In this document: in pieces, positions 29,213 to 44,960 of the stretch | Layout: each line of letters begins with the position of its first letter | How positions within the stretch are numbered: position 1 is the first letter of the stretch | NCBI GenBank assembly: GCA_964609085.1 | Contig: CAZSRZ010000006.1 | Location: forward strand, 12,668 to 76,667 | Length of the DNA: 64,000 nucleotides | Reading direction: 5' to 3' | Source of the DNA: an uncultured bacterium | GTDB taxonomy: Bacteria > Armatimonadota > SYMT01 | The notes under the pieces: model-generated | Databases searched by the model: none | Told to the model about the DNA's origin: nothing | What the model saw: the letters and a program-made list of their open reading frames with translations, nothing else | Program-made: the position numbers and the translations under genes

Positions 29213-29748
29213 CGGGGTTTCTCCTGCACTGCGTGGCTGAACCGGGCTCTCCACCTCCGCTCAACTTCCTGCGCCTGCCCGTCGTTCAGCGTCTTCGCGG
29301 CTTCGCGCCACCAGGTGCGGCGGACGGCCAGTAGCTGTCCGGTGAGCTGACTTACTGGTGCCGCGCGCTGGCGGAGCACCAACGGTGAGGCTGCCCGATC
29401 CGCCTCGCGCCGCATGGAGGACTCGAAGTTGGTGGTGGCCTGCTGCAGTGCCTCGCGGATGGGAGCGGTGTCTCGATCCCAACGGGTCTTGAGCGCGGTC
29501 AGCCGGGTGACCTGATGGGGACTCATCTTTAGCGCCTGATGCTGTGAGAGTAGCCAGGCGGGATCGGGTGGCGTCAGCTCGGTCGCGACGGGGATCTCGA
29601 CGTGGGTTCGGGAACTGGGCGGGCCTGCAGGCGTTGGAGTGGGGAGCATCCCTCTCCTCGCGAGCACGACCCCGGCAACAACGGCAAGCGCCATTCCCGG
29701 TCCGATGATGACCCGTGGGCGGCCGAGTGGGAACAGAGAGGGCCTCAA
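29209..29748 (-). CDS. Membrane-anchored helical protein, Spy/CpxP/ZraP-like
   Basis: An N-terminal transmembrane segment, then LKMSPHQVTRL and TLNDGQ (LTxxQ-like) helices; translationally coupled to both neighbours. Confidence 0.5.
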   Translation of the reverse strand: MRPSLFPLGRPRVIIGPGMALAVVAGVVLARRGMLPTPTPAGPPSSRTHVEIPVATELTPPDPAWLLSQHQALKMSPHQVTRLTALKTRWDRDTAPIREALQQATTNFESSMRREADRAASPLVLRQRAAPVSQLTGQLLAVRRTWWREAAKTLNDGQAQEVERRWRARFSHAVQEKPR

Positions 29749-32700: not shown

Positions 32701-33392
32701 CGGTTGATCACCTCGTTGTCGGCGAATTCACGCAGTCGGGAGGGGGTCCAGCCCTTCTCTTCGTCGCCGGTCAAGGCGAGGGACAGGATCGGCAGGTTCA
32801 GGGGATCGATGGGGACGACCCACGAAGGCTTCAGGTTGGCACCCGTGCCTGGTAGGTTGGCCTGGATCACGTTCATCAGGGCCTGGGCATCGAAGAGAGC
32901 CTTCTTCATGTCCACCCCGTAATTGAACTCCAGGGTGACAAGGGAGAAGCCTTCTTGGGAGCTGGACCGCACGTAGTGGAGGTCCCTGACGTTGACCATC
33001 TGTTCTTCGATTGGCTTGCTGACGTACAGCTCCATCTCTTCGGCAGAGAGTCCGGGCATCATGGTGACGACACCGACCATCGGACTCTGCACGTACGGAG
33101 CGAAGCGGCGGGGCAGGGCGAAGCCGACCGCCATCGCGCCGAGCAAGAAGACCGCGAAGAAGAAGGCGATGATGAGGTAGGGATGCTCGATCGTCCAGCG
33201 TGGGAGGGCCCCGGCCGCGGTCGCCGCCCGGGACAGCAGCGCGGAGGTCGAACCAGGTCTTCGGCTGCCGTCGCCTTCCGCACTCACTTTAGTTGGTCGC
33301 TTTCCCGTGCCCGGAGTGCTCGTGACGCCCATCCGTCCCCGAGGGTTGAGCTCCGGTCGCCCGTCGCGCTCCCGGCAGCACTCCCGGCCCAC
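29745..33392 (-). CDS. RND efflux permease (AcrB/CusA superfamily)
   Basis: PGLSAEEME..VSKPIE, GRLVDDSIV, FRELVW, YLILVAQF and RLRPIVMS. The true start is probably ATG 33332. Confidence 0.93.
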   Translation of the reverse strand: MGRECCRERDGRPELNPRGRMGVTSTPGTGKRPTKVSAEGDGSRRPGSTSALLSRAATAAGALPRWTIEHPYLIIAFFFAVFLLGAMAVGFALPRRFAPYVQSPMVGVVTMMPGLSAEEMELYVSKPIEEQMVNVRDLHYVRSSSQEGFSLVTLEFNYGVDMKKALFDAQALMNVIQANLPGTGANLKPSWVVPIDPLNLPILSLALTGDEEKGWTPSRLREFADNEVINRLKRLQRVYSVVPFGGYRRQLQVVVDRERLAAYRLSILDVRNAIDRFNVSRPAGTLTHGTDEGIVRVDTRATGADDVLAYPITSISSATNAGAGPSGQAGSGLGGGGMGAMGSGAEDPLPSTIGGSGGGTSGAGRSPRTVFVRDVARVVDTHWERRSAYRYLKHEPGSAGEVNPAIEVSVIQDPGSSSAQVVPTVMQAVQQMERDFPGIRFETAYDNARFTDVLFANIWEELLLAIVMTGVALLFFLGDWRSALIALIALPASLLLAILFMVPMGMSFNSGTLIGLLISIGRLVDDSIVDVHAVERHLRMGKDVRTATADGIGEIRLAVLAGTFTTFVGLSPLLFCGGIVEIMFRELVWPVIFCQLSSMIVGFTLTTLLCAHLLRKEEDRAGDRRHPVGRLLYAVIDPFQRFLERTERAYERAVRWTLRHRLLVGSAILAVIIGGFTFYPLIGSEMMPLADVGQANGILEMAPGTSFEETEKAVKQIELLMLKHPELEKGSIEIGAETMFESWSPFFTGYAMPQANGAAFMLTFSDKDDRKRTIWQVMDTIHKEAFATIPGIRRLQIKEMGSDVMATAAAPVHLIAYGTDLKVLDLIGRQLEGVAKKTTGVYQPATTWTLGVPDFEIQVDPVRAQEAGLSPESISQQAYYSLRGGLTNEFYRLPNLRQNTILVRYEDKDRRNEGDLQNLYVTTPSGRQLPLKSVATVERREAPTVIEHDGLRRVMGLTAYYRIGDLPSMDLAMNLVSNAYAGNRQAGILPINFPPGYGLEMRGDMTQMMDSFRRLFIGLGLSLVMMYLILVAQFRGFIQPLQMIASLPDQLAGIFFLLFITGQAFSSVSIMALIVVAGMDITTAILMLDLIVQYRDEGVPRDEAVALACPARLRPIVMSATITAIAIVPAAFFPSTGQDAYRSLAVVTIGGLLTGTFLSLFDVPIMHTFTDDLVRWLNKIFLNRDWKWPVQAAEGAVGAASPAPPVDAPAGGGSH

Positions 33393-35712
33393 CCTGGCCC
33401 CAGGGCACAGCGGTCACGGAATCGCCTGGCCGGAGGGAGTCATGGCCGCGGATAACCACCCGCTGCCCTGCCTTCAGGCCGGCGAGAACCTCGGTGTGAT
33501 CGCCGTCGCTGGTGCCCACGCGCACGTCGACTCGCTGCACGGTATACCGACCGGTGCTGCCGTCCGGTTCGGCCAGCCACACGAATGCGGTCTGGTTTCC
33601 AGAGAGGATGCTGCTGGACGGCGCGCTTTGCCAGCGAATGGCGGCTGCCGGAACCCGCAACGCGCCGCCGCGCGTCCCCGCCCCGGAGGGGATTCGGATC
33701 TCCATGCGGAGGTACTGCCCCGGCAGAAAGCGCCGCGGCAGGTTGGGGAACAGGGCTTCCACAGTTCCGGTGCGAGTTGCGGGATCCATGGCGGGAGCGA
33801 TCGAGCTGATCCGTGCTTCGAGCGGGCCCCCCACCCCGTCCTGGGTTCGGATGAGGACGCGTGCCCCGAGCCGGATCCGGGCCAGATCGCTTTCCGCCAC
33901 GTTGGCCTGGAGGCGGATGGGCTGAATCTGGGCGACCCTTAGGATGGCTTGTCCCGGACTGACGAGCACGCCGGGGCTGATCAGCCGTTGAGTGACGACC
34001 CCATCGACGAGGGAGCGGATCTCGGAATAGCCGCGAACGATCCCCGCGGTGGTCAACGCTGCCTGCGCACTGCGAACCCCCGCCTGCGACTGCCGAATCT
34101 TTCCCGCGCCCGCCTCTGCCATCGCCTGCATCGCCCGGGCGTTTTCTTGTGCGGCCTCCAACTCGCCTTCGACCATTCGGATCCGTCCCGCGGCGGCGGC
34201 GATCTCTGATCTCGCCTGCTCCACTTTCGCTTCCATCCCCTCGACCCGAGCCTGCGTCTGGCTGATCTTGGCCTGCGCACCGTCCACCATCGCCTCCGCC
34301 CTTGCCAGCCGGGACTCGGCCGCGCGGATGTCGCTGCGGACGGCGCTCAGCCTCGCCTCAGCCTGCCGCACCTTCGCGTCCACTCCCTTCGCAACGGCCT
34401 CTTCACGCTGGAACTCTTCGCCCGAGATCGCTCCCTTCTCGAGTAGCGCCCGTAACCGCGGAAGCTGCAGTCGCCAGTACGCCTGGTCCGCCTTCATGGC
34501 CGAAAGCATGGCCGCTGCCTCCGGCAGCCCTTCGCGGGCCGACTGCAGCATCGAGTCCATTGCGGCCCGCTCATGCCGGGCGGCCGTCAGATCCGCCCGC
34601 ATGCCGAGCAACTCGCCCCGCGCCTCCGAGACCCCGGCCAGGGTCTCCTGCAGCATCGCCCGGGTGCGGGCTTCCATCCGGCGGGACTCTTCGACGGCAC
34701 CCTCACGGCCGCGCACCTCGGCCTTCGCCTGCGCTGCCGCTGCCAGGGCCTGCCGGTACTCAAACCCGGCGATGCTGGCCATCTGTTCCGCCATGGTGCG
34801 GTTCGCGGCTCTCTCCTGAACTCGTGACTGTGCCTCACGAGTATCCAGCTTCGCCAGCAACTGATCTTTGCGGACCGTGTCCCCTGCGTAAAGCGGCATC
34901 CAGGTGATCCAGCCGGTGACGCGGGGATAAACGTCCTGCTCGACGTAACCCACCGCTGATCCGGTGTAGCGGACAGAGGCCTCCACGGGAGCCTCGTCCA
35001 CTGTCGCTAGCGCTACCGGCGCCTCCCCCGGCGGCGCGGGCATCTTGGACATGTCCGAGGCCAGAGCGTCAACCAGGCTCATGGACCCGGGTCGTTTCCA
35101 GGCACGGACCGCCCAGCCGGAAATCGCGAACGCCGCCACGATCAGGATCATCGCCACCAGTAGCGACGGGTGAAAGAGGTCCTTCCACGAGATCCGGGCT
35201 CCGATCCGCCGCAGCCGGAACAACACGAACGCCACGCCGGCGACCAGGATGATCCAGGGGAGGGCAGTCCATAGCGTGTCGAACCCGCCGGCTTGCCGCC
35301 CGGTAGTCGCCCCGCCGGTGTCCTGACCGGTTCGGACCGTCAGGCGTGCGGTGGCCTCGCCAGCCGCGGCCGAGATGCTCACCGTGACCTCGTAACCGCC
35401 CTCCATTGCGAAGCGCGCCGGCGCACTATACACGCCGGGCCTGCCGGCCTCAGGACTCGCCGCCTCCTCCTGCTCCCCCATGTCCATGTCCGGCATCTTG
35501 GCGAGAACGCGGACTTTTGCTCCGGCGACCGGTCCGGATTCCTCGTCTCGGAGAGCGATGAAGATCCGGGCATTGCCTGTGGGGATGACGGCGGGATCCG
35601 TCCACACATCCGCCCGGTACGCGCCGGCAGAGAGCGGTAGTGCGGCGGCTGCCGGCGATGCGACAACCCCCACGCCCAGGACGGCCAGGGAAATGCCGAT
35701 GACCCATCGCAT
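33289..35712 (-). CDS. RND periplasmic adaptor with an N-terminal YtkA/FixH-like domain and a very long coiled coil
   Basis: Signal peptide, AKMPDMDMG..GVY..F.MEGGY, two transmembrane segments, VYPRVTGWI..GDTV, a ~270-aa heptad region, IRSLVDGVV, and a His-rich tail. Confidence 0.88.
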   Translation of the reverse strand: MRWVIGISLAVLGVGVVASPAAAALPLSAGAYRADVWTDPAVIPTGNARIFIALRDEESGPVAGAKVRVLAKMPDMDMGEQEEAASPEAGRPGVYSAPARFAMEGGYEVTVSISAAAGEATARLTVRTGQDTGGATTGRQAGGFDTLWTALPWIILVAGVAFVLFRLRRIGARISWKDLFHPSLLVAMILIVAAFAISGWAVRAWKRPGSMSLVDALASDMSKMPAPPGEAPVALATVDEAPVEASVRYTGSAVGYVEQDVYPRVTGWITWMPLYAGDTVRKDQLLAKLDTREAQSRVQERAANRTMAEQMASIAGFEYRQALAAAAQAKAEVRGREGAVEESRRMEARTRAMLQETLAGVSEARGELLGMRADLTAARHERAAMDSMLQSAREGLPEAAAMLSAMKADQAYWRLQLPRLRALLEKGAISGEEFQREEAVAKGVDAKVRQAEARLSAVRSDIRAAESRLARAEAMVDGAQAKISQTQARVEGMEAKVEQARSEIAAAAGRIRMVEGELEAAQENARAMQAMAEAGAGKIRQSQAGVRSAQAALTTAGIVRGYSEIRSLVDGVVTQRLISPGVLVSPGQAILRVAQIQPIRLQANVAESDLARIRLGARVLIRTQDGVGGPLEARISSIAPAMDPATRTGTVEALFPNLPRRFLPGQYLRMEIRIPSGAGTRGGALRVPAAAIRWQSAPSSSILSGNQTAFVWLAEPDGSTGRYTVQRVDVRVGTSDGDHTEVLAGLKAGQRVVIRGHDSLRPGDSVTAVPWGQGGPGVLPGARRATGAQPSGTDGRHEHSGHGKATN

Positions 35713-35794
35713 TGATCCGCCCCGCGTTGCTCCTGGTCTCACGTCGTCCTCCGGTTACTCCGCCGGTCATGCTCGACTTCGCCCCGGAATTGAG

Positions 35795-36994
35795 CTAATG
35801 CAGCACGACGAACCCGCCATCCGGACGGGGGAAAGCCGTTGCCAGTCCCCAGGTCGGGATGCCGCCCTCGATCCGTCCCCGCTCCGTCAACGGGCTGCCG
35901 GTTCGATCGTAGAGCTGCCAGGCCAGCGAGCCGCCGCGCTGCCAGCCGGTCCCCTCGTCCCAGATCAGCAGCAGTTCTCCCGCCCGGTTCACCGTGACGA
36001 ACGGGTGCTTGCGCCCCGCCGGCGGACCCGGTGCTGTGATCTGTCGAGCCAGCCTCCGCGTGCCGGGGTCAACCCGGGCAAACCGGATCTGCCCCGCCGT
36101 TTCCCACGTCCCCCATACACCATCAGGGCCCTCCGCGAGCGACTCGCTGCTCATGGGACAGGCATTGATCACCCACGGGTCGATCCGCCCTCCCTGGAAG
36201 GCCGCTCGCGGGCCGGCGGCAACCAGGAACACCATGTCCCGGTTCACCTTTTCCGTGGCCGCCCGATAGAGGAGATAGATTGCCCCCTTCTGATCCGCAA
36301 AGATCTTGAGGCTGCAACAGGCGCAAGCGCCGGTCGGGTCCTGGTAGATACTCGCCTCCGGACCAAACGTGCGACCGTCGTCGGAGGAGCGGGCCAGCCA
36401 GACGCGCCGGGCACCTTCCCCGGCGCCTCGCGAAGGGGATGCATGCCACGCCACGTAGACGTTGCCCTGGGGATCGGCGGCGACCGACGCGCCCCCGTCC
36501 AGGTCTGCCGTGTTGCCCAGCAGGTCTCGCTGCGGCGCAAACTTACCCCCGCTCTCCAGGCGGGTGTAGTAGAGGGGCGCCCCCTTGGGCGAGCCATGCC
36601 CTCCCGCGCCATTCCAGACGACGTGGACGGTATTGGCCCTGCCCAGCGCCAGTTGTCCCCCGCGGATCGTGCCCGCCGCTACGGCAGTCCCGGCATCGCT
36701 ATTCACTCGCAGCGGTTCCGACCAAGCGCTGCCGCCAGGCGATCGACGCTGGTAGTAGAGATCCCCCCCGCGCGGATCGCCCTTGAAGTAGACGAGATGG
36801 GCGGCTCCGGCGGCGTCGACCACCGCCTGGGGCTGGATCCCGCTATTGGGGGTCTTGATCACTTCCACCCGGGCCGCCGCGCCCGCGGGCGCGGCGGCTG
36901 GGCCGGTGGGGAGTAGCCCGCTTGAAGTCAGCAAGCCGAAGAGCGCCGCACGATGGAACCATCGGCGACCCGGTCGAGAGGATTTCAGGTGCAT
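35795..36994 (-). CDS. Exported BNR/sialidase-like beta-propeller protein
   Basis: Asp-box SSDDGRTF, repeated VHVVW/VYVAW blades, and ACACCSL. Confidence 0.65.
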   Translation of the reverse strand: MHLKSSRPGRRWFHRAALFGLLTSSGLLPTGPAAAPAGAAARVEVIKTPNSGIQPQAVVDAAGAAHLVYFKGDPRGGDLYYQRRSPGGSAWSEPLRVNSDAGTAVAAGTIRGGQLALGRANTVHVVWNGAGGHGSPKGAPLYYTRLESGGKFAPQRDLLGNTADLDGGASVAADPQGNVYVAWHASPSRGAGEGARRVWLARSSDDGRTFGPEASIYQDPTGACACCSLKIFADQKGAIYLLYRAATEKVNRDMVFLVAAGPRAAFQGGRIDPWVINACPMSSESLAEGPDGVWGTWETAGQIRFARVDPGTRRLARQITAPGPPAGRKHPFVTVNRAGELLLIWDEGTGWQRGGSLAWQLYDRTGSPLTERGRIEGGIPTWGLATAFPRPDGGFVVLH

Positions 36995-37020
36995 GGGCTT
37001 ACTCCTGGAGAGCGCGTCTC

Positions 37021-37434
37021 CTAGTGGTGGTGACCGTGGTCAGGGGCCTTCAGCGGCTTCGCATACTTGCCGGGGTGGGAGTGGAAGGTCTGATGTGACT
37101 TCGCATCGGCGAACAGGAAGATGCCACCGCCATGCGCCATCTTCATGGTTTTGGAGGTGACGGCGAAGGACTTGCCGGTCACCGGGTCCTTCGTCTGTTT
37201 CACGTATTTGGCCGGGTCCTTCTTGATCTCCCCGATGCAACTGGGGCAGCAGACGGACACGAACTCGTTGTTCACCCGAACGTAGGGTGCGTGCGCCCGA
37301 TCCTTGATGGGACCCTTCATCACCGGACAGGTGAGGGGCTTGGCAGCAGTGGGAGCCTTCTCGGCCCTGCCGACGCCGCCGATCGCCGTCACCAGCACCG
37401 CGGCGGCGAGGAGCCAGGTCGATCTCTTGAGCAT
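37021..37434 (-). CDS. Exported YHS/TRASH-domain protein
   Basis: CPVM..CCPSC..DP.KY, a second DPVTG unit, and a C-terminal DHGHHH. Confidence 0.8.
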   Translation of the reverse strand: MLKRSTWLLAAAVLVTAIGGVGRAEKAPTAAKPLTCPVMKGPIKDRAHAPYVRVNNEFVSVCCPSCIGEIKKDPAKYVKQTKDPVTGKSFAVTSKTMKMAHGGGIFLFADAKSHQTFHSHPGKYAKPLKAPDHGHHH

Positions 37435-37506
37435 TACCGGTTCATCCTTTCGGTTGTGGGCTTCCGCCGGAGGACCCGGCAGAAGCTTCTGCGTGCGGAG
37501 GACGCA

Positions 37507-38310
37507 CTATTGCGCCTTCTTTACAAACTCTTCCGGGGGCTTGATGGCTCTAGGATCCTTCTTGACTAGCGCCAGGTATTCCTCAAGGCAGGGCGGGCAA
37601 CAGAAGACGTACTCCTTGCCGGCGATGACCCAGCTCAGTCCAGGGTTTGCCTTGGTCAGGGTGATGGGGCAGATCCTGTCTCCAACAGCGGGACGAAGGT
37701 CGTGGCTGACCTTCACCGATCGGAATTTGACGGCCGGCAGCTGGTTGCCGTTGGCGGCAATGTCCGCCTCCGTGTAGGCGCCGCCGGGTGTGAGATAGAG
37801 GAGCCGATCCTTGGACGTGGCCGGCGCCGCCGCGATGCTGAGCGCTCCGGTGGGGAAGAGGGCCTTGATCGTGCCCAGCGCGGAGAGCATTGCTTTGTGC
37901 TGACGAACCGTCTCCGGGTACTTGCCCGCATCGGCATACCGGTCTAGCTGCTCTGCCAGCCGATCAATGATCCGGATATGCGACTCCAGTTTCTTACGTG
38001 CCACGGCGGAGAGCGACCTGCTCTTGTCCGGCAGGGTGCGGACGAGGTCGCGAATCTCGAAGGCCACGGGGTGAACCTCATCCAGGCGTCTTTCCCGGAC
38101 GAGTACGGCCAGGTCCTTCACCTGAAGCTCAACATCGGCCCACACCGAGGCCGCCTCTCCGTACGCCACGCGGAGGGCGTGGGTGGCCGTTGGGCTCGCC
38201 GGCGGCTTGACCGGAGTCCGAGTGGCACCACGGGCGAATGCCGGCATGGCAGTCAACAACAGGCCGAGCAACGTGAGGCTGAAGATGGGTTGCATGCGGG
38301 TTCCTTTCAT
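37507..38310 (-). CDS. Exported protein with a helical bundle and a C-terminal YHS-like domain
   Basis: Signal peptide, an all-alpha His-containing region, and CPIT..EYVFCCPPC. Confidence 0.7.
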   Translation of the reverse strand: MKGTRMQPIFSLTLLGLLLTAMPAFARGATRTPVKPPASPTATHALRVAYGEAASVWADVELQVKDLAVLVRERRLDEVHPVAFEIRDLVRTLPDKSRSLSAVARKKLESHIRIIDRLAEQLDRYADAGKYPETVRQHKAMLSALGTIKALFPTGALSIAAAPATSKDRLLYLTPGGAYTEADIAANGNQLPAVKFRSVKVSHDLRPAVGDRICPITLTKANPGLSWVIAGKEYVFCCPPCLEEYLALVKKDPRAIKPPEEFVKKAQ

Positions 38311-38313
38311 CGG

Positions 38314-39111
38314 TTAGAAGCTGTAGGAGTAGCCGGCGACGAGGCGGACTCGATCTCTCGCCGCGCCCTTCCAGCCTGCAAGGTCGGATTGGATCCCCAG
38401 ATCCATCACCGATCGGACGCCGACCTGTCGGCGGAGTCCGATGCCGACGCCGAGTACGCCGCCGCTGTCGAATCTCTCGCCGGCACGGATCGAGATCTCC
38501 GCCAACCCGGTCGTGCTGAAGGACGTGGGGTATCCCAGCGGCCGGCTGTAGCCGAGGACGACACCCGGCCGGAACTCGCGATCTCCGGGCGGGGCACCCG
38601 GGTTGCCCTCCAGGTCGAGGTTCAGGTGAACGCGGCCGTACTGGTCCGCCTGCCGACTGGCAATACCGCGAAGCCGGAACGCCACCCCACGCGAGCCGTC
38701 ACCGGTGGGCGCGGCGAGGTCGGCTCGCAGCGCCAGGGCAGGAGTTCGTCCGTGCTCACGGTTGAAGTTGTGGAACAACCCGACCGACACGTCGCCCGGA
38801 TCGACGCCAGACCAGCTGCCGCGCTCCTGACCGCCGATCGCGGGCGCGAAGCCGATGCTGAGGTGGCTATTCAGGCTGAATCCGTAGAGGTATTCGGCGG
38901 ACAGTCCAAGCTTTGTGGAGCGCCCCCTCGCCCAGCCGAGGGCGAGTCCAATTTCAAGGGCCTGTTCCCGAAAAGCTATGGCTCCCGCATCGTCAAAGGT
39001 CAACGGACGGTTGGCGTCCAGGTTATTGTGGTCCACAGCCTGCGCGGGTCCGGCGGTCAGCAGGGCGATGGTGACGAGGGCAAGGAGGGTGTTGTTTCGT
39101 CTCAAGGGCAT
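38314..39111 (-). CDS. Outer-membrane beta-barrel (putative transporter)
   Basis: Signal peptide, alternating amphipathic strands, and a C-terminal GYSYSF. Confidence 0.75.
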   Translation of the reverse strand: MPLRRNNTLLALVTIALLTAGPAQAVDHNNLDANRPLTFDDAGAIAFREQALEIGLALGWARGRSTKLGLSAEYLYGFSLNSHLSIGFAPAIGGQERGSWSGVDPGDVSVGLFHNFNREHGRTPALALRADLAAPTGDGSRGVAFRLRGIASRQADQYGRVHLNLDLEGNPGAPPGDREFRPGVVLGYSRPLGYPTSFSTTGLAEISIRAGERFDSGGVLGVGIGLRRQVGVRSVMDLGIQSDLAGWKGAARDRVRLVAGYSYSF

Positions 39112-40715
39112 CGTGCCGCCCCCTTCCCATCAGCGGCATGGGGCTGGTAGGGATTCTCGACCGGGCCACGCGGCTTGACGTAGGTGTCCGGCTTCTGGCC
39201 CTCGCGTTCGGCCCACGCGACGAACGTGAGCGCCTTGGCGCCGGACAGGTCCGGGTTTGCCCTCACGTAGGCATCGAAGGCGGCGCGGGTGGTGAACGCC
39301 CGTGACCACATATCGCAGCCCGCGTGGCTGGCCTCGCTTTCCAGGAAGACCACGCCGGGTGTTGTGGTCTTCAGGTTCCCCTGCTCATCTGAGGTCACCA
39401 CCACGGTGCGGTACGGGTCCTCGGTGGGGATCCGCAGGAGGGCGCGGCCCTTCGTTTCGGCGGCCATGTCGCGCGCGCAGAGCGGGCACCGCACTCGCAT
39501 CGACCAACCATCGGCGGTCACGGTGGGGTTGCGCCACCAGTCGCCCCCGTCCCAGAGGGGCATCGAGCAGTGGTGGCAGTCCGCCATGCTCATCCAACCC
39601 ATGGACGGCATCCACATCAGATCCGGGGTCATCCCTTTCATCATCCCCATCCCCGGCATGCCGACGAAGTGCCGATGGTCGTGAACTCCGGGGGCGCCCG
39701 CGGGTTGTGCGGACTCGCCCGGTTTCTCACCGCGGTGGGCTGCGGCGGAAACCTCCCAGATTGCCAGCCGGATCTGCTCTTCCTTCCGGGGATCGGACAG
39801 CTCCGGGGAAGCCAGGATGTCGTTCACCATGTCGTGCAGCATGTGCAGGTTGTCGAAGGCGTTGGCGATGTGCGGGAAGCGTGCCGCGAAGATAGGGCTG
39901 ACCTCGGCGAACATCGGCATGAAGGGTCGATCGGTCCGGTACAGCTCCACCCGCCGGTACTGGTCGCCGACCAGGGCATAGGCAGCCTTCTGGTCCTCGG
40001 AGGAGGTCCGGAAGAGCACGTCGTACATCGCGCCCTGCAGCCAGTGGTAGCCCCAGAACAGCCCGTTGACCTTCGGATAGGTTCGTCGAAACTTCCCGCT
40101 GTACGGCCGGCTGTCCAGGTGTTCCATGTTCATGGGAAGCGGCGTGATGGCGTACGGCACGCTTTCAAAGTAGTACTTCCAGAGCCGCTCGATCTCCCGG
40201 TCCTTCTCGGCGTGGGTGAGCCGGCGCGACGCCAGCACGTCCACGGTCTGCGCGTGCAGAACATGGGTCCAGTCGAATACCTGCTCCAGCACGCCGTACT
40301 TGCGGCCGAATGTGGGGGCGATGGCCGCCTCGTCCGGCATGAATCGGGGCGGATTCTTCAGCACGCGGTCAATTCGGCCGAAGGTCGTCGTTTCCAGCCG
40401 AGCGGCTTTCCCGGTCACAAGGTCCTCGTAGGCCATAGCGTGCCCCACCGCCACGGCGTTCAAGTCCCGCGCCAGGGGCTCGTTGTTGTAGACGGCGAAG
40501 TTGTAGGCACCCCGCCGGTAGAAGAGATGATTCTGCTGGGTATTGGTCAGCCAGCCCGGGAGCCCACCGGGGTCGCGAGGTAGTTCCCCAGAAGGCATGC
40601 GGGGCGCGTCGCCATGACCAGAATGGCCGTCCGGCCGGGGCTGGGCCCCGGTCGGACGGGCTGCTGGTGGCAGGCTGATCAACAGCAGCGCGGACACGAT
40701 CCAGGCCTTGTTCAT
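39102..40715 (-). CDS. Exported His-repeat helical protein with a Met-rich linker and a C-terminal NosL-like domain
   Basis: FDWTHVLH / FDNLHMLH repeats, GMPGMGMMKGM, then CHHC..RCPLCA..HAGC..TTRAAF. Start taken at ATG 40715 (signal peptide MNKAWIV). Confidence 0.7.
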   Translation of the reverse strand: MNKAWIVSALLLISLPPAARPTGAQPRPDGHSGHGDAPRMPSGELPRDPGGLPGWLTNTQQNHLFYRRGAYNFAVYNNEPLARDLNAVAVGHAMAYEDLVTGKAARLETTTFGRIDRVLKNPPRFMPDEAAIAPTFGRKYGVLEQVFDWTHVLHAQTVDVLASRRLTHAEKDREIERLWKYYFESVPYAITPLPMNMEHLDSRPYSGKFRRTYPKVNGLFWGYHWLQGAMYDVLFRTSSEDQKAAYALVGDQYRRVELYRTDRPFMPMFAEVSPIFAARFPHIANAFDNLHMLHDMVNDILASPELSDPRKEEQIRLAIWEVSAAAHRGEKPGESAQPAGAPGVHDHRHFVGMPGMGMMKGMTPDLMWMPSMGWMSMADCHHCSMPLWDGGDWWRNPTVTADGWSMRVRCPLCARDMAAETKGRALLRIPTEDPYRTVVVTSDEQGNLKTTTPGVVFLESEASHAGCDMWSRAFTTRAAFDAYVRANPDLSGAKALTFVAWAEREGQKPDTYVKPRGPVENPYQPHAADGKGAARCP

Positions 40716-40729
40716 GGGTGCCACGTCGA

Positions 40730-41227
40730 TCAGCGAGCGGGAGTGGCCAGAGCCACCATCTCGGCCAGAGTGAGCGGCTTCGCGTCGGCAAGCAACTCGT
40801 GATTCGCGTGGATCCACTTCTCGAAAGCAGACCGGGTGGTCAACGCTCGGTAGCCGAGCTGGCAGCTTCGGTGGTTCACTTTTTGCCCCACGAAGACGGC
40901 GCCCTCGGGTGAGGCGGTCCACTTGCCGTCCTTGCGCGCAAGGGTCACGGGCTTTCCCTTCAGCTCGGAGGGCGCGAGGATCGTGATGTCGCCCGTGTAG
41001 CTCTTCGAGTCCTGGAGCGCACAGAAAACACAGCGGTACTCGATCCGCTTCCGGCCACTCTTGAGGGCGACCTCATTGTCGAGCCGATCCGTGTCCTGCA
41101 CCACATCCAACTTGCAGACAGGGCACTTCGCCTCGTGAGCCCTGGCCGTATCGAGCCTCGGTCCGGCGACCGCGATCGCCGCCAGTATGCCGGCGATGAT
41201 CCATCGCCGCGAGATTATGGCATGCAT
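40730..41227 (-). CDS. Exported Cys/His metal-binding protein, NosL-like
   Basis: Signal peptide, CPVC..RCVFCA..HRSC..TTRSAF; AGAGGAG ribosome-binding site. Confidence 0.7.
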   Translation of the reverse strand: MHAIISRRWIIAGILAAIAVAGPRLDTARAHEAKCPVCKLDVVQDTDRLDNEVALKSGRKRIEYRCVFCALQDSKSYTGDITILAPSELKGKPVTLARKDGKWTASPEGAVFVGQKVNHRSCQLGYRALTTRSAFEKWIHANHELLADAKPLTLAEMVALATPAR

Positions 41228-41395
41228 TGCAAACTCCTCTGGGCGCCCTTGCGGGGGCGGGGATTGAGTGTCGCCGTCGGCGTCCCGGTTGGGGGACGCA
41301 CGGCATTCATCCGGGTGCCGTTGGGGGACGGGCGGCCGACCGTCACGGACGGATCGACCAGGGCGATCCGCCGGAGGCGGGGTAACTCCGTCCCG

Positions 41396-41872
41396 TTAGT
41401 GGGTGACGGCGGTCGGAGGGGCGCGCGACCGATCAGCGCCGCGCTGGGGCGGTCGCAGAGGCCCGGAAGCCGGCTGAGGCAACCGCAAGCCGCCCGTAGG
41501 CAGGATCAGGAGACGATCCGCGGTAGGCAGCAGGGCCGGGCTTGCCGCGAGGGGCCTCGCCGCCGGTTTGGGCTCCGTGGCCACCGGGGCAGAAGGCGTC
41601 TCGACCGTGCACGTGCACGAGGCCGAGGCCAGTGACCGGCCGGTGTGATGGGTCGGCGAGACGGCCTCGGAGCCGGATCGGCAACAACAGGTCGCTTCGC
41701 CGGACATCCCGCAGGCCCTGGGCGCCTGAGGCTGGGCAGAACTCGCCGCCGTTGCCGTCGGTGCAGTGGAGCTCCCGCAGGCGACCGCCATCCCGGGAAG
41801 GCCAGTGGCGAACGCCACCGCCAGGGCCGTGGGAAGGGCCATCCAGATTCTGTTGCGCCGCAGGAGTTTCAT
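41396..41872 (-). CDS. Cys-rich leader ORF with a C-terminal RAPP motif (DUF2946/CruR-like)
   Basis: An N-terminal hydrophobic helix, ACG..CCC..CTC, and a Pro-rich tail ending SRAPPTAVTH. It is the first gene after the CsoR-boxed promoter. Confidence 0.75.
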   Translation of the reverse strand: MKLLRRNRIWMALPTALAVAFATGLPGMAVACGSSTAPTATAASSAQPQAPRACGMSGEATCCCRSGSEAVSPTHHTGRSLASASCTCTVETPSAPVATEPKPAARPLAASPALLPTADRLLILPTGGLRLPQPASGPLRPPQRGADRSRAPPTAVTH

Positions 41873-41910
41873 GAAGGTTGCGCCTGTCCGTGAACAGGTC
41901 GTTGTCGAGG

Positions 41911-41939
41911 AGTATATACCCCTAGGGGGTAGAGATCAA
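41911..41939 (-). promoter_or_regulatory. Sigma70 promoter with a CsoR-type operator in the spacer
   Basis: Minus strand TTGATC-N17-TATACT; TACCCC-TAG-GGGGTA palindrome at 41917-41931. Confidence 0.8.
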
Positions 41940-41958
41940 CCACCGGCTGATCCCGATT

Positions 41959-44577
41959 TCACATGGACAAGGACCCGGTGGATGCACTGACGTTCCGGTT
42001 GTCGGCGTGGGTTTGTTGGGCAGGGACGTCGCCCGTTCGCGCGGACTGGGACCGAAACCCTCGCAGTCGCAGGCTGTTGGTCACCACCGAGATGCTGGAG
42101 AGAGCCATGGCCGCACTGGCGATGATCGGGGACAGAGTGATGCCGAAGACCGGGTAAAGCGCCCCTGCCGCTATCGGGATGCCCAGGACGTTGTAGAGGA
42201 AGGCGAAGAAGAGATTCTGGCGGATCGTGCGCATCGTGGCCCGTGAGAGCCGGATCGCCGCGACCACGCCCGTCAGTTCGCCGCTCACCAGGGTGATATC
42301 CGACGCTTCCATGGCGACATCGGTGCCTGTTCCGATGGCGATCCCGACATCAGCCTGCGCCAGGGCCGGGGCGTCGTTGATGCCGTCGCCGACCATGCCC
42401 ACCACGTGGCCTGCCTCCTGGAGCATCCGAACCTGTGCCACCTTCTGCTCCGGCAGCACCTCGGCGACGACGCGGTCGACGCCTACCTGCCGGCCGACCG
42501 CCTCAGCGGTGCGCAGATTGTCTCCGGTGACCATAACCACCAGCAGTCCGGCTTCGCGGAGAGCGGCCACCGCCGCGGCTGACCGGGCCTTCACCCGATC
42601 CGCAACGGCGATCACCCCGGCCGCCCGACCGTCCACGGCAGCCAGCATCGGTGTCTTCCCATCTTCGGAGAGCCGGTCCATGCTCTCCAGCAGCGGCGTC
42701 GGGTCGATGCCGCGCTCATCCAACAATCGCCGATTGCCGACGAGCACGGTGCGGCCGTCGACGGTCGCTTCCAGCCCGCGCCCGGTCAGCGAGTTGAAGG
42801 AGGATGCCTGGCTGGGGCTGAGGCCCCGAACCTCGGCGGCCCTGACGATCGCCTCCCCGAGCGGATGCTCCGAGGACTTCTCGGCACCAGCAATCAACCC
42901 CAGGAGTTCCGCCTCGTCCCATCCGTCAGTAGGTATGACATCGGTCAGTTCCGGTCGCCCTTCGGTGATCGTGCCGGTCTTGTCCAGGATCAGGGCGGTG
43001 ATCTTGTGCGCTGTCTCCAGGCTTTCACCCCCACGGATCAAGATGCCGTTTTCGGCACCGCGGCCGGTGCCGACCATCACCGCGGTCGGCGTCGCCAGGC
43101 CCAGAGCGCAGGGGCACGCGATGATGAGCACCGAGACGAAGGCGATCAGAGCCTGCTGAAGCCGCGTTTCCACCGGGGCCAGCGTCATCCAGAGGAAGAA
43201 CGCGACGACGGCGATCCCCAGCACCCCCGGCACAAAGACACCGCTGATGACGTCCGCCAATCTCTGGATCGGAGCCTTGCTGCCCTGAGCCTCCTGCACC
43301 AGCTTGATGATCTGCTGCAGAGCAGTCTCCTTGCCCACCTTCGTCGCTTCGAGCCGGAAGGCGCCGGTTCGGTTAATGGTGGCACCGAAGACCTCATCCC
43401 CCGGGGCCTTCTCCACCGGTAGGCTCTCGCCGGTCAACATCGACTCATCCACCGCGCTCCCGCCGAACCGGACGACCCCGTCCACGGGGATCTTCTCGCC
43501 TGGTCGGACCAGCACCAGATCTCCGGCGGCCACATCCTCGACGGGGATCTCGAGCTCCGCCCCATCACGCAGCACATGGGCGGTCCGCGGTTGGAGCCCG
43601 ATCAGGCGACGAATCGCGTCGCCCGCTCGAGCCTTTGCACCGGCCTCCAGCATCCTGCCGACCAGGATCAAGGCGATGATCACGGCTGCTGCCTCAAAGT
43701 AGACGGGTGCCATTACCGGGCCGTGGCCGCCGCCGTGAGCGTGGGTGGGAACGACGAGCCCGGGAAAGAGGGTCGCGATGACGCTGAAAACGAATGCGGC
43801 CCCGGTGCCCATGGCGATCAGGGTGTTCATGTCCGCCGAGCGGTGCCAGAGGGCACTCCAGGCACCACGGAAAAACGGTGCTCCTGCATAGGCGAGGACG
43901 GGCGTCGTGAGCAACATCTGGACCCAGTGGTTGCCGGGGAAATCCAGGTGCAGCATGGCGAGGACCGTCACAGGCAACCCGAAGACCAGAGCGACCCAGA
44001 AGCGGCGGCGGAGGTCCGCGTACTCTCGCTCACGGGCAACCCGTTCCCAATCCTCATCGCCAACGCCCGCCGCCTCCGCCTCGATGGGCGTGGGCGGTTC
44101 CAGCGCGTGTCCCTCGCTGACGAGGGCCTGCCGTACCGCGTCCGGCTCCGTGAGGCCGGGGAAATACTCGACCACCAGAACCTGGTTGGCCTCGTCAAGG
44201 GCGGCACTCACCACGCCGCGCAGTCGAGCAGCCGTCTCGACAACCCCCGTAGCCTGCTCCGCGCCTGCCGGGGTCAACCGAATCCGAGCCTCAGCCGTAC
44301 CGGCCGTACCATAGCCCGCCCGCCGGATGGCACCGACCAGCAGCCCGGTGTTCGTCTCCGTCGGCTGATAGGCGATCGTCGCCTGGTGGGCAGCGAAGTT
44401 CACCCCGGCCTCGGTCACGCCGGGAGTGCGGCGGAGCACCTTCTCGATACGGGCAGCGCACGCCGCACAACTCATCCCCGTCACTGGAACCGTGATCTGC
44501 TCGTCCGCCGTCCCCTCGGGGCCAGCCGTCGGACCGGATTGGCCCTCGCGGACCACTGACCCCATTGAGCCTGCCAT
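41959..44577 (-). CDS. copA: Cu(I)-translocating P1B-1 ATPase
   Basis: [38 protein letters not shown] and AMALSS; GAGGTG ribosome-binding site before ATG 44577. Confidence 0.95.
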
Positions 44578-44624
44578 CGCACTCACCTCGTCTCCCCTCC
44601 GAGCGCCTGTCGGCCGGATGTCCA

Positions 44625-44686
44625 ATACCCTATGGGGGTATACCAGCGCCAACACTTTTATACCCCCTACGGGTATGACCTGTCAA
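44625..44686 (-). promoter_or_regulatory. copA promoter with two CsoR-type operators
   Basis: Minus strand TTGACA (44686-44681)-N18-TATAAA (44662-44657); ATACCC-N5-GGGTAT at 44625-44641 and 44660-44676. Confidence 0.85.
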
Positions 44687-44720
44687 CCTGGACGGTCCAC
44701 GGTTCCGCTGCCCAGCCGCC

Positions 44721-44960
44721 GCGCCCAACCCCCGACAAACGGGAGCCTCCCCGGGAGCCATCCTGGGTGCGAGGGCGACCCGCCCGCATGGGCCGCGGTG
44801 ACCGCGCCCAACCCCCGACAAACGGGAGCCTCCCCGGGAGCCATCCTGGGTGCGCGGGCGTCCCGCCCGCATGGGCCGCCGTGGCCGAACCCGACCACCG
44901 ACAAACGGGCACATCCCTGGGAGCCATCCTGGGTGCGCGATCATCCCGCCCACATGGGCC
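44721..44960. repeat. Three tandem 83-bp repeats containing a REP-like palindrome
   Basis: CGACAAACGGG at 44733, 44816 and 44899. Each unit contains GGGAGCCATCCTGGGTGCG..CCCGCCC.CATGGGCC. Confidence 0.9.

What the first reader, a model, noticed from the sequence alone, without database searches (positions are those of the whole stretch)
41228..41939. RAPP-motif leader peptide plus a CsoR box: possible two-tier copper control of a ten-gene operon
Seen: the first ORF after the CsoR-boxed promoter is a 158-aa exported-type peptide with 7 Cys, an HH pair and RAPP five residues before the stop. It is followed by a 168-nt spacer whose mRNA is C-rich (CGTCCCCCAAC twice, 41288-41298 and 41320-41330) with small hairpins before the next RBS. 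Known: RAPP is a ribosome-arrest motif (ApdA/ApdP), and the Bordetella DUF2946 uORF CruR uses CXXC and RAPP for Cu-responsive, Rho-linked control of a TonB-dependent receptor gene. Inference: a CruR-like sensor stacked on CsoR repression, upstream of an efflux-type operon in a distant phylum. If Cu relieves CsoR but also relieves stalling, the two layers could define a Cu concentration window.
Basis: partly seen in the sequence, partly recalled or inferred. Interest (0 to 1): 0.75.

Follow-up and report, generated by a model that had tools for sequence, protein, structure and literature searches.

The report
Copper-sensing ribosome-stalling leader peptide, new family
A small, previously unrecognised gene at the head of a copper-efflux operon in an Armatimonadota bacterium encodes an exported, cysteine-rich peptide ending in the ribosome-stalling motif RAPP. 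It probably senses copper while it is being made, adding a second control layer to a classical CsoR copper repressor site.

Summary
ORF 41396-41872 (-) encodes 158 aa with an export signal, 7 Cys, HH, and RAPP five residues before the stop. A 168-nt spacer follows it. A sigma-70 promoter precedes it, and the promoter spacer holds TACCCCCTAGGGGTA, identical to the core of validated Streptomyces lividans CsoR operators.

The ORF belongs to a real family. I found 44 relatives, mainly in Armatimonadota MAGs, at about 29% mean column identity. They keep only an export signal, CC(C), CxC and a C-terminal [GS]R[AS]PP. Codons at RAPP vary synonymously. The CxC-to-RAPP distance is 62.0 +/- 1.6 residues although the linker sequence is unconserved. 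The stop usually lies two codons after RAPP. The downstream spacer is always long (66-393 nt), lacks intrinsic terminators and usually carries a C>G patch. The CsoR box sits in the promoter spacer in 15 of 18 relatives.

The best reading is a CruR/CutF-like nascent-chain copper sensor stacked on CsoR. It is not a detectable Pfam DUF2946 member, it lacks CXXC, and its ruler is 62 rather than 40-45 residues. The polarity (copper induces or relieves stalling) and the output (Rho or RBS unmasking) remain inferred. I favour copper-induced stalling that blocks Rho. New variant of a known kind.

The parts
41934..41939 (-). -35 hexamer TTGATC of the leader/operon promoter
   Evidence: The same architecture (TTGAC-like, box, TATACT-like) is seen in relatives.
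41917..41931 (.). CsoR-type operator TACCCCCTAGGGGTA (TAC-N9-GTA with G/C tracts), filling the -35/-10 spacer
   Evidence: The core is identical to the S. lividans copZA1/copZA2 CsoR operators (PMC3902906 Table 1). It is conserved at the same place in 15 of 18 related promoters.
41911..41916 (-). -10 hexamer TATACT
41396..41872 (-). Leader ORF of 158 aa: an exported, disordered, Cys-rich peptide ending in RAPP-TAVTH-stop
   Evidence: One search gives the translation. 18 homologues were found by full HMMER search. Alignments are A2 and A3. AF2 predicts only the N-terminal helix 5-23, with pTM 0.19. The product is not in the 5.8-bn protein set, so it was apparently not called as a gene on the source contig.
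41777..41872 (-). Export signal (residues 1-31, MKLLRRNRIW...GMAVA) followed by the nearly invariant Cys32
   Evidence: The -1 residue before the Cys varies in relatives (A, G, D, M, V, L), so SPase I cleavage at AxA|C is at least as likely as a lipobox.
41681..41689 (-). CCC motif (Cys62-64); CC is nearly invariant in the family
41609..41617 (-). CxC motif (Cys86-Thr-Cys88), invariant in the family. It is the upstream end of the 62-residue ruler.
   Evidence: The CxC-to-R gap is 62.0 +/- 1.6 in 44 sequences.
41414..41425 (-). RAPP codons CGC GCC CCT CCG (residues 150-153), the predicted ribosome arrest site
   Evidence: R, P and P are invariant and A nearly so. Third codon positions vary freely across 27 loci. 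Stalling with the third residue in the P site has been shown for RAPP-type peptides (PMC10987492).
41426..41467 (-). Semi-conserved tunnel segment upstream of RAPP (GPLRPPQRGADRS; family consensus [GS]PPR-x8-[PA][SG])
   Evidence: PP lies at -12/-11 in 19 of 34 sequences, and -1 is S or G in 30 of 34.
41228..41395 (-). 168-nt untranslated spacer between the leader stop and the next gene. The C>G patch at 41300..41241 has C30/G16. CGTCCCCCAAC repeats lie at 41320-41330 and 41288-41298. A hairpin spans the stop codon and another lies just 5' of the SD.
   Evidence: No intrinsic terminator. No Rfam family.
41234..41240 (-). Shine-Dalgarno AGAGGAG of the first structural gene
   Evidence: It is not sequestered in folding models.
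40730..41227 (-). First regulated gene (165 aa): an exported protein with CPxC...CxxC and a MerB-like fold
27656..40922 (-). Rest of the operon: a 606-aa unknown protein, a 265-aa OM-barrel-like protein, TRASH-like and YHS-like proteins, a 399-aa protein, a YtkA-HlyD adaptor, an RND pump, a small ORF and an outer-membrane factor
   Evidence: Synteny of g165-p606-p265 holds in nearly all of the 58 related loci.
41959..44586 (-). Upstream copA (Cu P-type ATPase). It has its own promoter carrying two CsoR-type boxes at 44661-44675 and 44626-44640.

Best explanation
ORF 41396-41872 (-) is a cis-acting regulatory leader: a nascent-chain copper sensor of the CruR/CutF kind.

Proposed sequence of events:

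1. Transcription starts at a promoter whose spacer is a CsoR operator, so cytoplasmic Cu(I) must first release CsoR.
2. The leader is then translated and exported co-translationally through Sec.
3. When the ribosome reaches R150-A-P-P153 it pauses, with the first Pro codon in the P site. That is two to five codons before the stop.
4. At that moment the invariant CxC, always about 62 residues from the arrest site, has passed through the roughly 30-40-residue exit tunnel and the translocon. The CC(C) and N-terminal Cys have passed too. The thiols therefore face the periplasm.
5. Without Cu, I infer that folding, disulfide formation and translocation pull the chain out. The ribosome terminates, and the long untranslated spacer with its C>G patch is left naked for Rho, or for decay. 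Little of the operon is then made.
6. With periplasmic Cu bound to the thiolates the pull is lost and the stall persists. The stalled ribosome sits over the stop codon and the start of the spacer and keeps Rho off, so RNA polymerase reads into the MerB-fold/TRASH/YHS proteins and the CusCBA-like pump.

The operon would thus need both cytoplasmic Cu (through CsoR) and periplasmic Cu (through the leader).

Shown here:
- the gene is real;
- the conserved motifs, the ruler, the stop proximity and the long spacer;
- the CsoR operator and its co-occurrence with the leader.

Inferred:
- that stalling occurs;
- that Cu is the ligand;
- the polarity;
- the Rho output.
For: - Real, translated gene. Full HMMER search finds 18 homologues that align end to end through RAPP. 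A further 26 were recovered from DNA upstream of orthologues of the next gene.
- Selection on the peptide. R, P and P are invariant and A is nearly so, while third codon positions are free: Ala GCC8/GCG8/GCT10, Pro CCT10/CCC6/CCA2/CCG9.
- Only the functional pieces are conserved. At 29% mean column identity the conserved elements are the export signal, Cys32, CC(C), CxC and [GS]R[AS]PP. The rest is predicted disordered (pTM 0.19), as reported for CruR (PMC9426467).
- Molecular ruler. The CxC-to-R gap is 62.0 +/- 1.6 (n=44). The CC-to-CxC gap is 26 +/- 13 and first-Cys-to-CxC is 59 +/- 11. This mirrors the conserved CXXC-RAPP spacing that is functionally required in CruR.
- Stop proximity. The stop lies 2 codons after R[AS]PP in 35 of 44 sequences.
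- RAPP-type motifs stall ribosomes of diverse bacteria with the third residue in the P site. RSPP, which is seen in a subclade here, is a known variant (PMC10987492).
- Spacer. It is always long, 66-393 nt. It has no intrinsic terminator in 20 of 22 loci and a C>G patch in 20 of 22. In equal-length coding controls, a median of 0.13 of the stretches reach the same value. The CruR intergenic region is 162 bp and Rho-dependent.
- CsoR tier. The operator core is identical to validated S. lividans operators. It lies in the -35/-10 spacer here and in 15 of 18 relatives. There are two more boxes at the copA promoter. A relative carries csoR (PF02583) in the same cluster.
- Context is copper. The neighbourhood includes CopA, YHS/TRASH-like proteins, a MerB-fold Cys protein and a CusB/CusA/OMF-type pump.
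Against: - No experiment. Stalling, Cu binding and any effect on downstream expression are all unobserved, and no RNA data exist for this sequence.
- Most RAPP motifs in ordinary proteins do not stall (PMC10987492).
- No homology to DUF2946 is detectable.
- The C>G enrichment of the spacer is moderate. The leader ORF itself is C-rich, and 2 of 22 loci lack the patch.
- The presence of Rho in this organism was not checked.
- No csoR gene lies in the window.
- The polarity rests only on the logic that an efflux operon should be induced by Cu, and on analogy with CutF.
- The claim that 62 residues reach the periplasm is a geometric inference.
Confidence: 0.6

Rival explanations
1. Same leader, CruR polarity. 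The ribosome stalls constitutively at RAPP and Cu binding to the nascent Cys motifs releases it. Rho then terminates in the spacer. Combined with CsoR derepression, the operon would be expressed only in a window of Cu concentrations.
For: RAPP, rather than PPP, is the CruR motif. The spacer length of 168 nt resembles CruR's 162 bp and has a C>G patch. RAPP arrest is intrinsically strong in many peptides.
Against: The regulated genes are efflux/detoxification-type, and shutting them off at high Cu is counter-intuitive. CruR controls an uptake receptor. The 62-residue ruler and the obligatory export signal fit periplasmic sensing as in CutF better than CruR's cytoplasmic sensing with a 45-residue ruler.
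Confidence: 0.15
2. Same leader, SecM/CutF output. [quoted passage not shown]
For: This is the demonstrated output for CutF and SecM. Hairpins exist over the stop codon and just 5' of the SD. A stop-codon hairpin recurs in the closest relatives. Several spacers contain SD-like/anti-SD hairpins.
Against: The SD is 155 nt beyond the stall site. The fold of the spacer is no more stable than shuffles (z -1.38). Across 22 loci the SD region is about half unpaired, and modelling a stalled ribosome barely changes this: 0.45 free, 0.49 stalled, 0.46 at the stop. The spacers are not alignable, so no conserved long-range pairing could be shown.
Confidence: 0.15
3. The ORF encodes a stable periplasmic (lipo)peptide that binds or buffers Cu(I) through its thiolates. 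In this reading the C-terminal RAPP has a non-regulatory role such as sorting, protease recognition or partner binding.
For: It has seven Cys plus His and an export signal with a Cys directly after the AxA site. It is co-transcribed with other periplasmic metal-binding proteins.
Against: - It is predicted disordered, and nothing is conserved beyond the Cys residues and the last ~20 residues.
- A fixed 62-residue distance across an unconserved linker is hard to explain for a folded or binding protein.
- RAPP lies exactly two codons from the stop, and the gene is always followed by a long untranslated spacer.
- Orthologous cassettes in other phyla function without it.
Confidence: 0.08
4. It is a secretion monitor like SecM/ApdA/ApdP that reports Sec or lipoprotein-export capacity rather than copper.
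For: It shares the signal-peptide plus C-terminal RAPP architecture of monitoring substrates.
Against: No sec or yidC gene lies downstream. The invariant Cys motifs, the CsoR operator and the Cu gene context point to metal.
Confidence: 0.02

Closest known systems
CruR (Bp2923, Pfam DUF2946) of Bordetella pertussis, a Cu-responsive upstream ORF (PMC9426467)
   Same: Both have an export signal and Cys-based metal motifs at a conserved distance from a C-terminal RAPP that lies 2-5 residues from the stop. Both are poorly structured. Each is the first gene of a Cu-homeostasis operon, followed by a ~165-nt intergenic region.
   Different: - No PF11162 hit.
- CCC and CxC instead of CXXC.
- A ruler of 62 rather than 45 residues.
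- Phylum Armatimonadota rather than Proteobacteria.
- It heads an efflux-type rather than an uptake operon, so the opposite polarity is likely.
- It is combined with a CsoR operator.
CutF of Rhodobacter capsulatus (PMC9973294; bioRxiv 10.1101/2025.02.05.636593)
   Same: Both are exported nascent sensors with several Cys, including two upstream of the main motif. Each controls a Cu-detoxification gene that should be induced by Cu. Periplasmic sensing is plausible in both.
   Different: - CutF stalls at PPP rather than RAPP.
- Its CxxxC lies 40 residues from PPP.
- Its output is a stem-loop masking the SD, for which there is no support here.
- CutF is 118 aa, and the published CutF-like filter was <150 aa.
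SilD/CusD of Cupriavidus metallidurans, CutF-like ORFs before silCBA/cusCBA
   Same: A small exported Cys/His peptide with a C-terminal Pro-rich motif directly upstream of an HME-RND efflux operon. The N-terminal region is similar (YRRHWIAAFLL...AAYAC).
   Different: SilD has CxxxC and PRPPPRP rather than CxC and RAPP, and a 72-nt spacer. hhalign probability against A3 is only 18%, confined to the signal region.
ApdA/ApdP and the RQH family of RAPP-type arrest peptides; SecM (PMC10987492)
   Same: A C-terminal R-A-P-P (or R-S-P-P) motif, an N-terminal localisation signal, little other conservation and a patchy phylogenetic distribution.
   Different: Those peptides lie upstream of secA, secDF or yidC and monitor export. 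This one has invariant Cys motifs and a Cu context.
CsoR operators of Streptomyces lividans copZA1/copZA2 (PMC3902906)
   Same: The 15-bp core TACCCCCTAGGGGTA is identical, including the TAC-N9-GTA inverted repeat with G/C tracts, and it sits at a Cu-efflux promoter.
   Different: The phylum differs. The cognate csoR is not in the window, though it is present in the cluster of a relative, L060.

Membership tests
DUF2946 / CruR (Pfam PF11162) | Match to the PF11162 profile | tested here: not met
   0 hits for ORF158 at E<=10 and 0 of 19 family members. Precomputed Pfam is '-' for P0139-P0142 and for the leader in L060. No positive control with a bona fide DUF2946 protein could be run. SilD, a CutF-like protein, also gave no hit.
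DUF2946 / CruR (Pfam PF11162) | Conserved CXXC motif | tested here: not met
   The invariant motifs are CC(C) and CxC; no CXXC is present.
DUF2946 / CruR (Pfam PF11162) | Conserved C-terminal RAPP a few residues from the stop | tested here: met
   R[AS]PP occurs in 44 of 44 sequences, with a tail of 2 aa in 35 of 44.
DUF2946 / CruR (Pfam PF11162) | Spacing between the metal motif and RAPP conserved to within 1-2 residues (45 in CruR) | tested here: inconclusive
   The principle is met (62.0 +/- 1.6), but the value differs from 45.
DUF2946 / CruR (Pfam PF11162) | N-terminal export signal | tested here: met
   A basic n-region and a hydrophobic helix 5-23 followed by AxA-C.
DUF2946 / CruR (Pfam PF11162) | Cu-dependent change of ribosome stalling, coupled to Rho termination | not testable with these tools
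   Only indirect evidence is available: a long spacer, a C>G patch and no intrinsic terminator.
CutF-like proteins (criteria of PMC9973294) | <150 aa, PP within the last 15 residues, signal peptide, same-strand downstream gene within 1000 nt | tested here: inconclusive
   The PP, signal-peptide and downstream-gene criteria are met. The length criterion is not met for ORF158 (158 aa) or most relatives (138-198, mean 161). jackhmmer connectivity to the CutF list was not tested.
CutF-like proteins (criteria of PMC9973294) | Stem-loop shielding the SD of the downstream gene, opened by the stalled ribosome | tested here: not met
   SD unpaired probability is 0.45 free and 0.49 with a stalled ribosome over 22 loci. 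Spacer fold z-score is -1.38. These are thermodynamic models only.
RAPP-type arrest peptides (ApdA/ApdP/RQH) | Conserved C-terminal (R/Q/H)-(A/G)-P-P in a short uORF with a localisation signal | tested here: met
RAPP-type arrest peptides (ApdA/ApdP/RQH) | Located upstream of secA, secDF or yidC | tested here: not met
   The downstream genes are metal-binding and efflux genes.
RAPP-type arrest peptides (ApdA/ApdP/RQH) | Demonstrated ribosome stalling | not testable with these tools
   This needs toeprinting or peptidyl-tRNA detection.
CsoR-regulated promoter | TAC-N9-GTA pseudopalindrome with G/C tracts overlapping the promoter | tested here: met
   The box at 41917-41931 is identical to the S. 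lividans operator core, lies between -35 and -10, and is conserved in relatives.
CsoR-regulated promoter | A csoR gene (PF02583) in the genome | tested here: inconclusive
   None was found in the 64-kb window, either with a memory-based probe plus motif scans or with Pfam on ORFs near copA. A csoR gene is present in the homologous cluster of L060. The rest of this genome is not available.

The most novel reading that the evidence does not exclude
This is an independently evolved family of metal-sensing arrest peptides, unrelated in sequence to DUF2946. Its longer 62-residue ruler places a multi-thiolate site (CC(C)/CxC) on the periplasmic side of the translocon at the moment of RAPP arrest. 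Together with CsoR it forms a two-compartment AND gate: cytoplasmic Cu(I) opens the promoter and periplasmic Cu keeps Rho off. The gate controls a periplasm-clearing RND system. The ruler length would then report which compartment a nascent-chain sensor reads: about 45 residues for the cytoplasm (CruR) and about 62 for the periplasm.
Probability: 0.3. Interest if true: 0.8.

Novelty: new variant of a known kind. Interest (0 to 1): 0.62.

Why it matters
Nascent-chain metal sensing (CruR 2022, CutF 2023-25) is a very recent regulatory principle, known almost only from Proteobacteria and the DUF2946 family.

- **Breadth of the principle.** This locus shows the same three-part logic (export signal, thiol motif, ruler to a C-terminal arrest motif) in a sequence-unrelated family from a poorly studied phylum. 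That argues the principle is general and probably convergent.
- **A natural ruler experiment.** The family offers a comparison of ruler lengths (62 against 40-45 residues) that could reveal where the metal is sensed.
- **Two regulatory layers.** This is the first case I could find in the literature I searched where such a leader is systematically stacked on a classical metalloregulator operator.
- **Annotation gap.** The gene was apparently not called on the source contig, so such leaders are likely under-annotated in GC-rich MAGs.

Tried and rejected
- **Word-indexed protein search.** With ORF158 alone it found nothing, not even a self hit. With the 31-sequence profile it found only 4 proteins. 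The low-complexity composition defeats the index; the index-free HMMER search was needed.
- **Family libraries.** Pfam and NCBIfam gave nothing for the leader.
- **Pfam positive control.** I fetched SilD from pMOL30 for this purpose, but SilD itself has no Pfam hit, so the negative DUF2946 result has no positive control.
- **Known RNA elements.** Rfam finds no known RNA element in 41000-42100.
- **RBS-unmasking model.** Tested by partition-function folding with and without a modelled stalled ribosome in 22 loci; no effect.
- **Intrinsic-terminator attenuation.** Absent in 20 of 22 spacers.
- **Spacer alignment for covariation.** The spacers are too divergent. Only a stop-codon hairpin and a small hairpin 5' of the SD recur in the closest relatives, so I did not build a covariance model.
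- **Transcript evidence.** The sequence is found in one bioreactor metagenome DNA run and in no RNA run.
- **csoR in the window.** A probe written from memory plus motif scans found nothing. This is a weak negative.
- **Chance ORF in GC-rich DNA.** Rejected on conservation with synonymous variation. GC3 frame analysis alone was ambiguous in the Pro/Ala/Arg-rich C-terminal third.
- **Strict lipoprotein reading of Cys32.** Not adopted, because the -1 residue varies beyond lipobox rules.
Full report
**1. What is in the sequence**

On the minus strand, copA (a P-type Cu ATPase) ends at 41959. Twenty bases later lies the only sigma-70-like promoter in the region: TTGATC, 17 nt, TATACT (41939-41911). 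Its spacer is filled by the perfect palindrome TACCCCCTAGGGGTA (41917-41931).

An ATG at 41872 opens a 158-codon ORF ending in TAA at 41396. The product has:
- a basic and hydrophobic N-terminus;
- Cys at 32, 54, 62-64, 86 and 88;
- HH at 75-76;
- RAPP at 150-153, followed by TAVTH.

A 168-nt untranslated spacer (41395-41228) follows. It ends in AGAGGAG-N6-ATG for a 165-aa gene.

Nine or ten further tightly packed same-strand genes run down to 27656. They include YHS-like and TRASH-like proteins, a YtkA-HlyD adaptor, an RND pump and an outer-membrane factor.

**2. Is the ORF a gene?**

Composition alone is ambiguous in this 66% GC DNA, because the Pro/Ala/Arg-rich C-terminal third blurs the GC3 signal. 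The product is also absent from a 5.8-billion-protein collection that does contain the neighbouring 165-aa protein. It was apparently never called on the source contig.

An index-free HMMER search found 18 proteins of 150-198 aa that align end to end, right through RAPP.

I then fetched 58 loci encoding relatives of the 165-aa gene from genomes and metagenomes, plus one locus around a leader homologue. Wherever the cassette is the first in its operon, an ORF of 138-200 aa lies immediately upstream and ends in ...[GS]R[AS]PPxx-stop. These loci are mostly from Armatimonadota MAGs, plus a few MAGs labelled otherwise. That gives 44 sequences in all.

Mean column identity is 29% (A3). Only C86, C88, R150, P152 and P153 are invariant. 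C32, C63, C64 and A151 are conserved at >=90%.

At the RAPP codons the third positions vary freely across 27 loci: Ala GCC/GCG/GCT 8/8/10; first Pro CCT/CCC/CCA/CCG 10/6/2/9. Selection therefore acts on the peptide, in this frame. In the window itself, only 1 of 198 six-frame ORFs of >=100 aa has RAPP near its end.

**3. Anatomy of the family**

AlphaFold with the family alignment predicts only the N-terminal helix (residues 5-23). The rest is coil, with pTM 0.19.

The most telling feature is a ruler.
- The distance from the last Cys of CxC to the Arg of R[AS]PP is 62.0 +/- 1.6 residues (range 58-67, n=44).
- The CC-to-CxC distance is 26 +/- 13.
- The first-Cys-to-CxC distance is 59 +/- 11.
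- The sequence of the ruler itself is not conserved.

The last ~20 residues are semi-conserved, as [GS]PPR-x8-[PA][SG]-RAPP. The stop codon lies exactly two codons after the motif in 35 of 44 sequences.

The spacer that follows is long in every locus, 66-393 nt and typically 150-280. It has no intrinsic terminator in 20 of 22 loci and no Rfam element. In 20 of 22 loci it contains a 60-nt patch with about twice as many C as G. Equal-length stretches of the downstream coding strand reach that value in a median of 13% of trials.

**4. The CsoR tier**

The 15-bp core is identical to the copZA1 and copZA2 operators to which S. lividans CsoR binds in vitro. It has the TAC-N9-GTA inverted repeat shown there to be required (PMC3902906).

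Two more boxes lie in the copA promoter, at 44661-44675 and 44626-44640. That is three sites against 0.58 expected.

In 15 of 18 relatives a TAC-N9-GTA box sits between a TTGAC-like -35 and a TATACT-like -10, directly upstream of the leader.

No csoR gene is in the window. In the related locus L060 the cluster reads leader, 173-aa, 555-aa, 261-aa, cupredoxin, CsoR (PF02583), CopA.

**5. How it most likely works**

Three literatures bear on this.
- **CruR** (DUF2946, B. pertussis). It has an export signal and CXXC 45 residues from a C-terminal RAPP, with the spacing conserved and required. Its intergenic region is 162 bp. Cu relieves the stall and Rho terminates (PMC9426467).
- **CutF** (R. capsulatus). 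It is exported. Cu binding to a periplasmic CxxxC prolongs a stall at PPP, which opens a stem-loop over the cutO SD (PMC9973294 and the 2025 preprint).
- **RAPP-type arrest peptides.** They stall diverse ribosomes with the third residue in the P site. RSPP is a known variant, these peptides share nothing but the motif, and they probably arose repeatedly. Most RAPP motifs in ordinary proteins do not stall (PMC10987492).

The present family has the same three-part logic, so I read it as a nascent-chain Cu sensor.

For the output I tested the RBS-unmasking model. The spacer is no more stable than shuffles (z -1.38). Across 22 loci the SD is about half unpaired whether or not a stalled ribosome is modelled (0.45 against 0.49). 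The long spacer with a C>G patch and no terminator therefore favours control of Rho access, or of mRNA decay, as in CruR.

For the polarity, the regulated genes are detoxification and efflux genes. Cu should therefore prolong the stall, as in CutF. A 62-residue ruler exceeds the roughly 30-40 residues held by the exit tunnel by about a translocon's length. This is established geometry applied by inference, and it would place the CxC thiols in the periplasm at the moment of arrest.

Combined with CsoR, this gives a two-compartment AND gate.

Confidence by step:

| Claim | Confidence |
|---|---|
| The gene is real and the motif is under selection | ~0.95 |
| It is an arrest-based cis-regulator | ~0.6 |
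| Cu-induced stalling acting through Rho specifically | ~0.35 |

**6. Comparison and membership**

The leader works like CruR/CutF, but it is not a demonstrable member of DUF2946.
- No PF11162 hit for any of 19 members, even at E<=10.
- No CXXC motif.
- A different ruler length.

SilD of pMOL30 is a CutF-like ORF in front of silCBA, which shows that such leaders before RND pumps are already known. It shares only a similar signal region (hhalign probability 18%) and also lacks a Pfam hit. It therefore could not serve as a positive control.

Most members exceed the <150-aa filter of the published CutF-like census. [quoted passage not shown] This family was probably missed there.

**7. Verdict**

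The finding is real and well supported by comparative evidence. The DUF2946 label and the 'window' polarity do not, or not yet. I rate it a new variant of a known kind, with moderately high interest. The mechanism steps beyond conservation are inferred, and direct tests are listed under the decisive next steps.

Noticed in passing
window 44719-44960: A tandem array of 2.9 copies of an 83-nt GC-rich unit (89% matches) lies immediately upstream of the copA promoter, between copA and the HD-GYP/GAF/GGDEF gene (45006-47486). Its function is unknown.
   Followed up: partly
window 44626-44675: The copA promoter (TTGACA ... TATAAA) carries two CsoR-type boxes, TACCCGTAGGGGGTA in the spacer and TACCCCCATAGGGTA about 20 nt downstream. 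The listed GTG start of copA at 44655 lies inside this promoter. The real start is probably GTG 44586 or ATG 44577, behind GGAGGGGAG.
   Followed up: partly
window 40730-41227 (-): The first regulated gene encodes an exported 165-aa protein with invariant CPxC and CxxC pairs. Its C-terminal domain has a MerB-like predicted fold: the top 11 Foldseek PDB hits are all MerB, with TM about 0.47. It has 259 homologues, nearly all unnamed. It could be a NosL/MerB-fold periplasmic Cu(I) handler.
   Followed up: partly
window 38314-41227 (-) and loci L001-L058: The trio of 165-aa, ~500-600-aa unknown (no Pfam or PDB hit) and ~265-aa OM-barrel-like genes is a conserved cassette. It occurs across MAGs labelled Armatimonadota, Elusimicrobiota, Acidobacteriota/Holophagae and Zixibacteria, often near copA. 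Only a subset carries the RAPP leader. In many Fimbriimonadales loci the cassette instead follows a ~560-aa protein whose C-terminal sequence (...FPKPGLYKVYAQFDWRG...) is conserved across those loci, and sometimes also a ~150-aa protein ending FTCGMGMYDGKVVVK.
   Followed up: partly
L060 11209-11499 (+): In a relative with an RSPP-type leader, a 96-aa CsoR-family gene (PF02583) and copA lie at the 3' end of the same cluster, downstream of the leader-regulated cassette. The repressor would then itself be under leader control.
   Followed up: no
L016, L060; proteins P0140-P0142: A subclade of the leader family has R-S-P-P instead of R-A-P-P. Its first Cys cluster (CCC) comes directly after the signal peptide, yet the CxC-to-R spacing stays at about 59.
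   Followed up: partly
L041-L048 just after the leader stop; window 41380-41415: A hairpin that includes the last leader codons and the stop codon recurs in the closest relatives, with G-U and compensatory changes. Examples are the GCUAGC/GCUGGC arms, and in the window CCGUC...GACGG with TAA in the loop. A second small GC hairpin lies just 5' of the SD: GGCUC/GAGCC in L041, GGCCC/GGGCC in L043 and CGCCC/GGGCG in the window. Neither masks the SD and their role is unknown.
   Followed up: partly
L010, L022, L023, L046 upstream of the leader ATG: In several relatives the leader ATG lies only 14-22 nt after the -10 hexamer, so the leader mRNA would be leaderless or nearly so. No clear SD precedes the leader in the window either.
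   Followed up: no
L059 30023-30418 (-) (pMOL30 silD): SilD is annotated as a copper/silver resistance protein and is cited as CutF-like. It has no Pfam hit at E<=10, so part of the CutF-like superfamily lies outside PF11162.
   Followed up: partly
window 41396-41872 (-): The leader ORF is absent from the large protein collection although its neighbour is present, so it was apparently not called on the source contig. The source is a bioreactor metagenome, with one DNA run holding 97% of the sampled words.
   Followed up: partly
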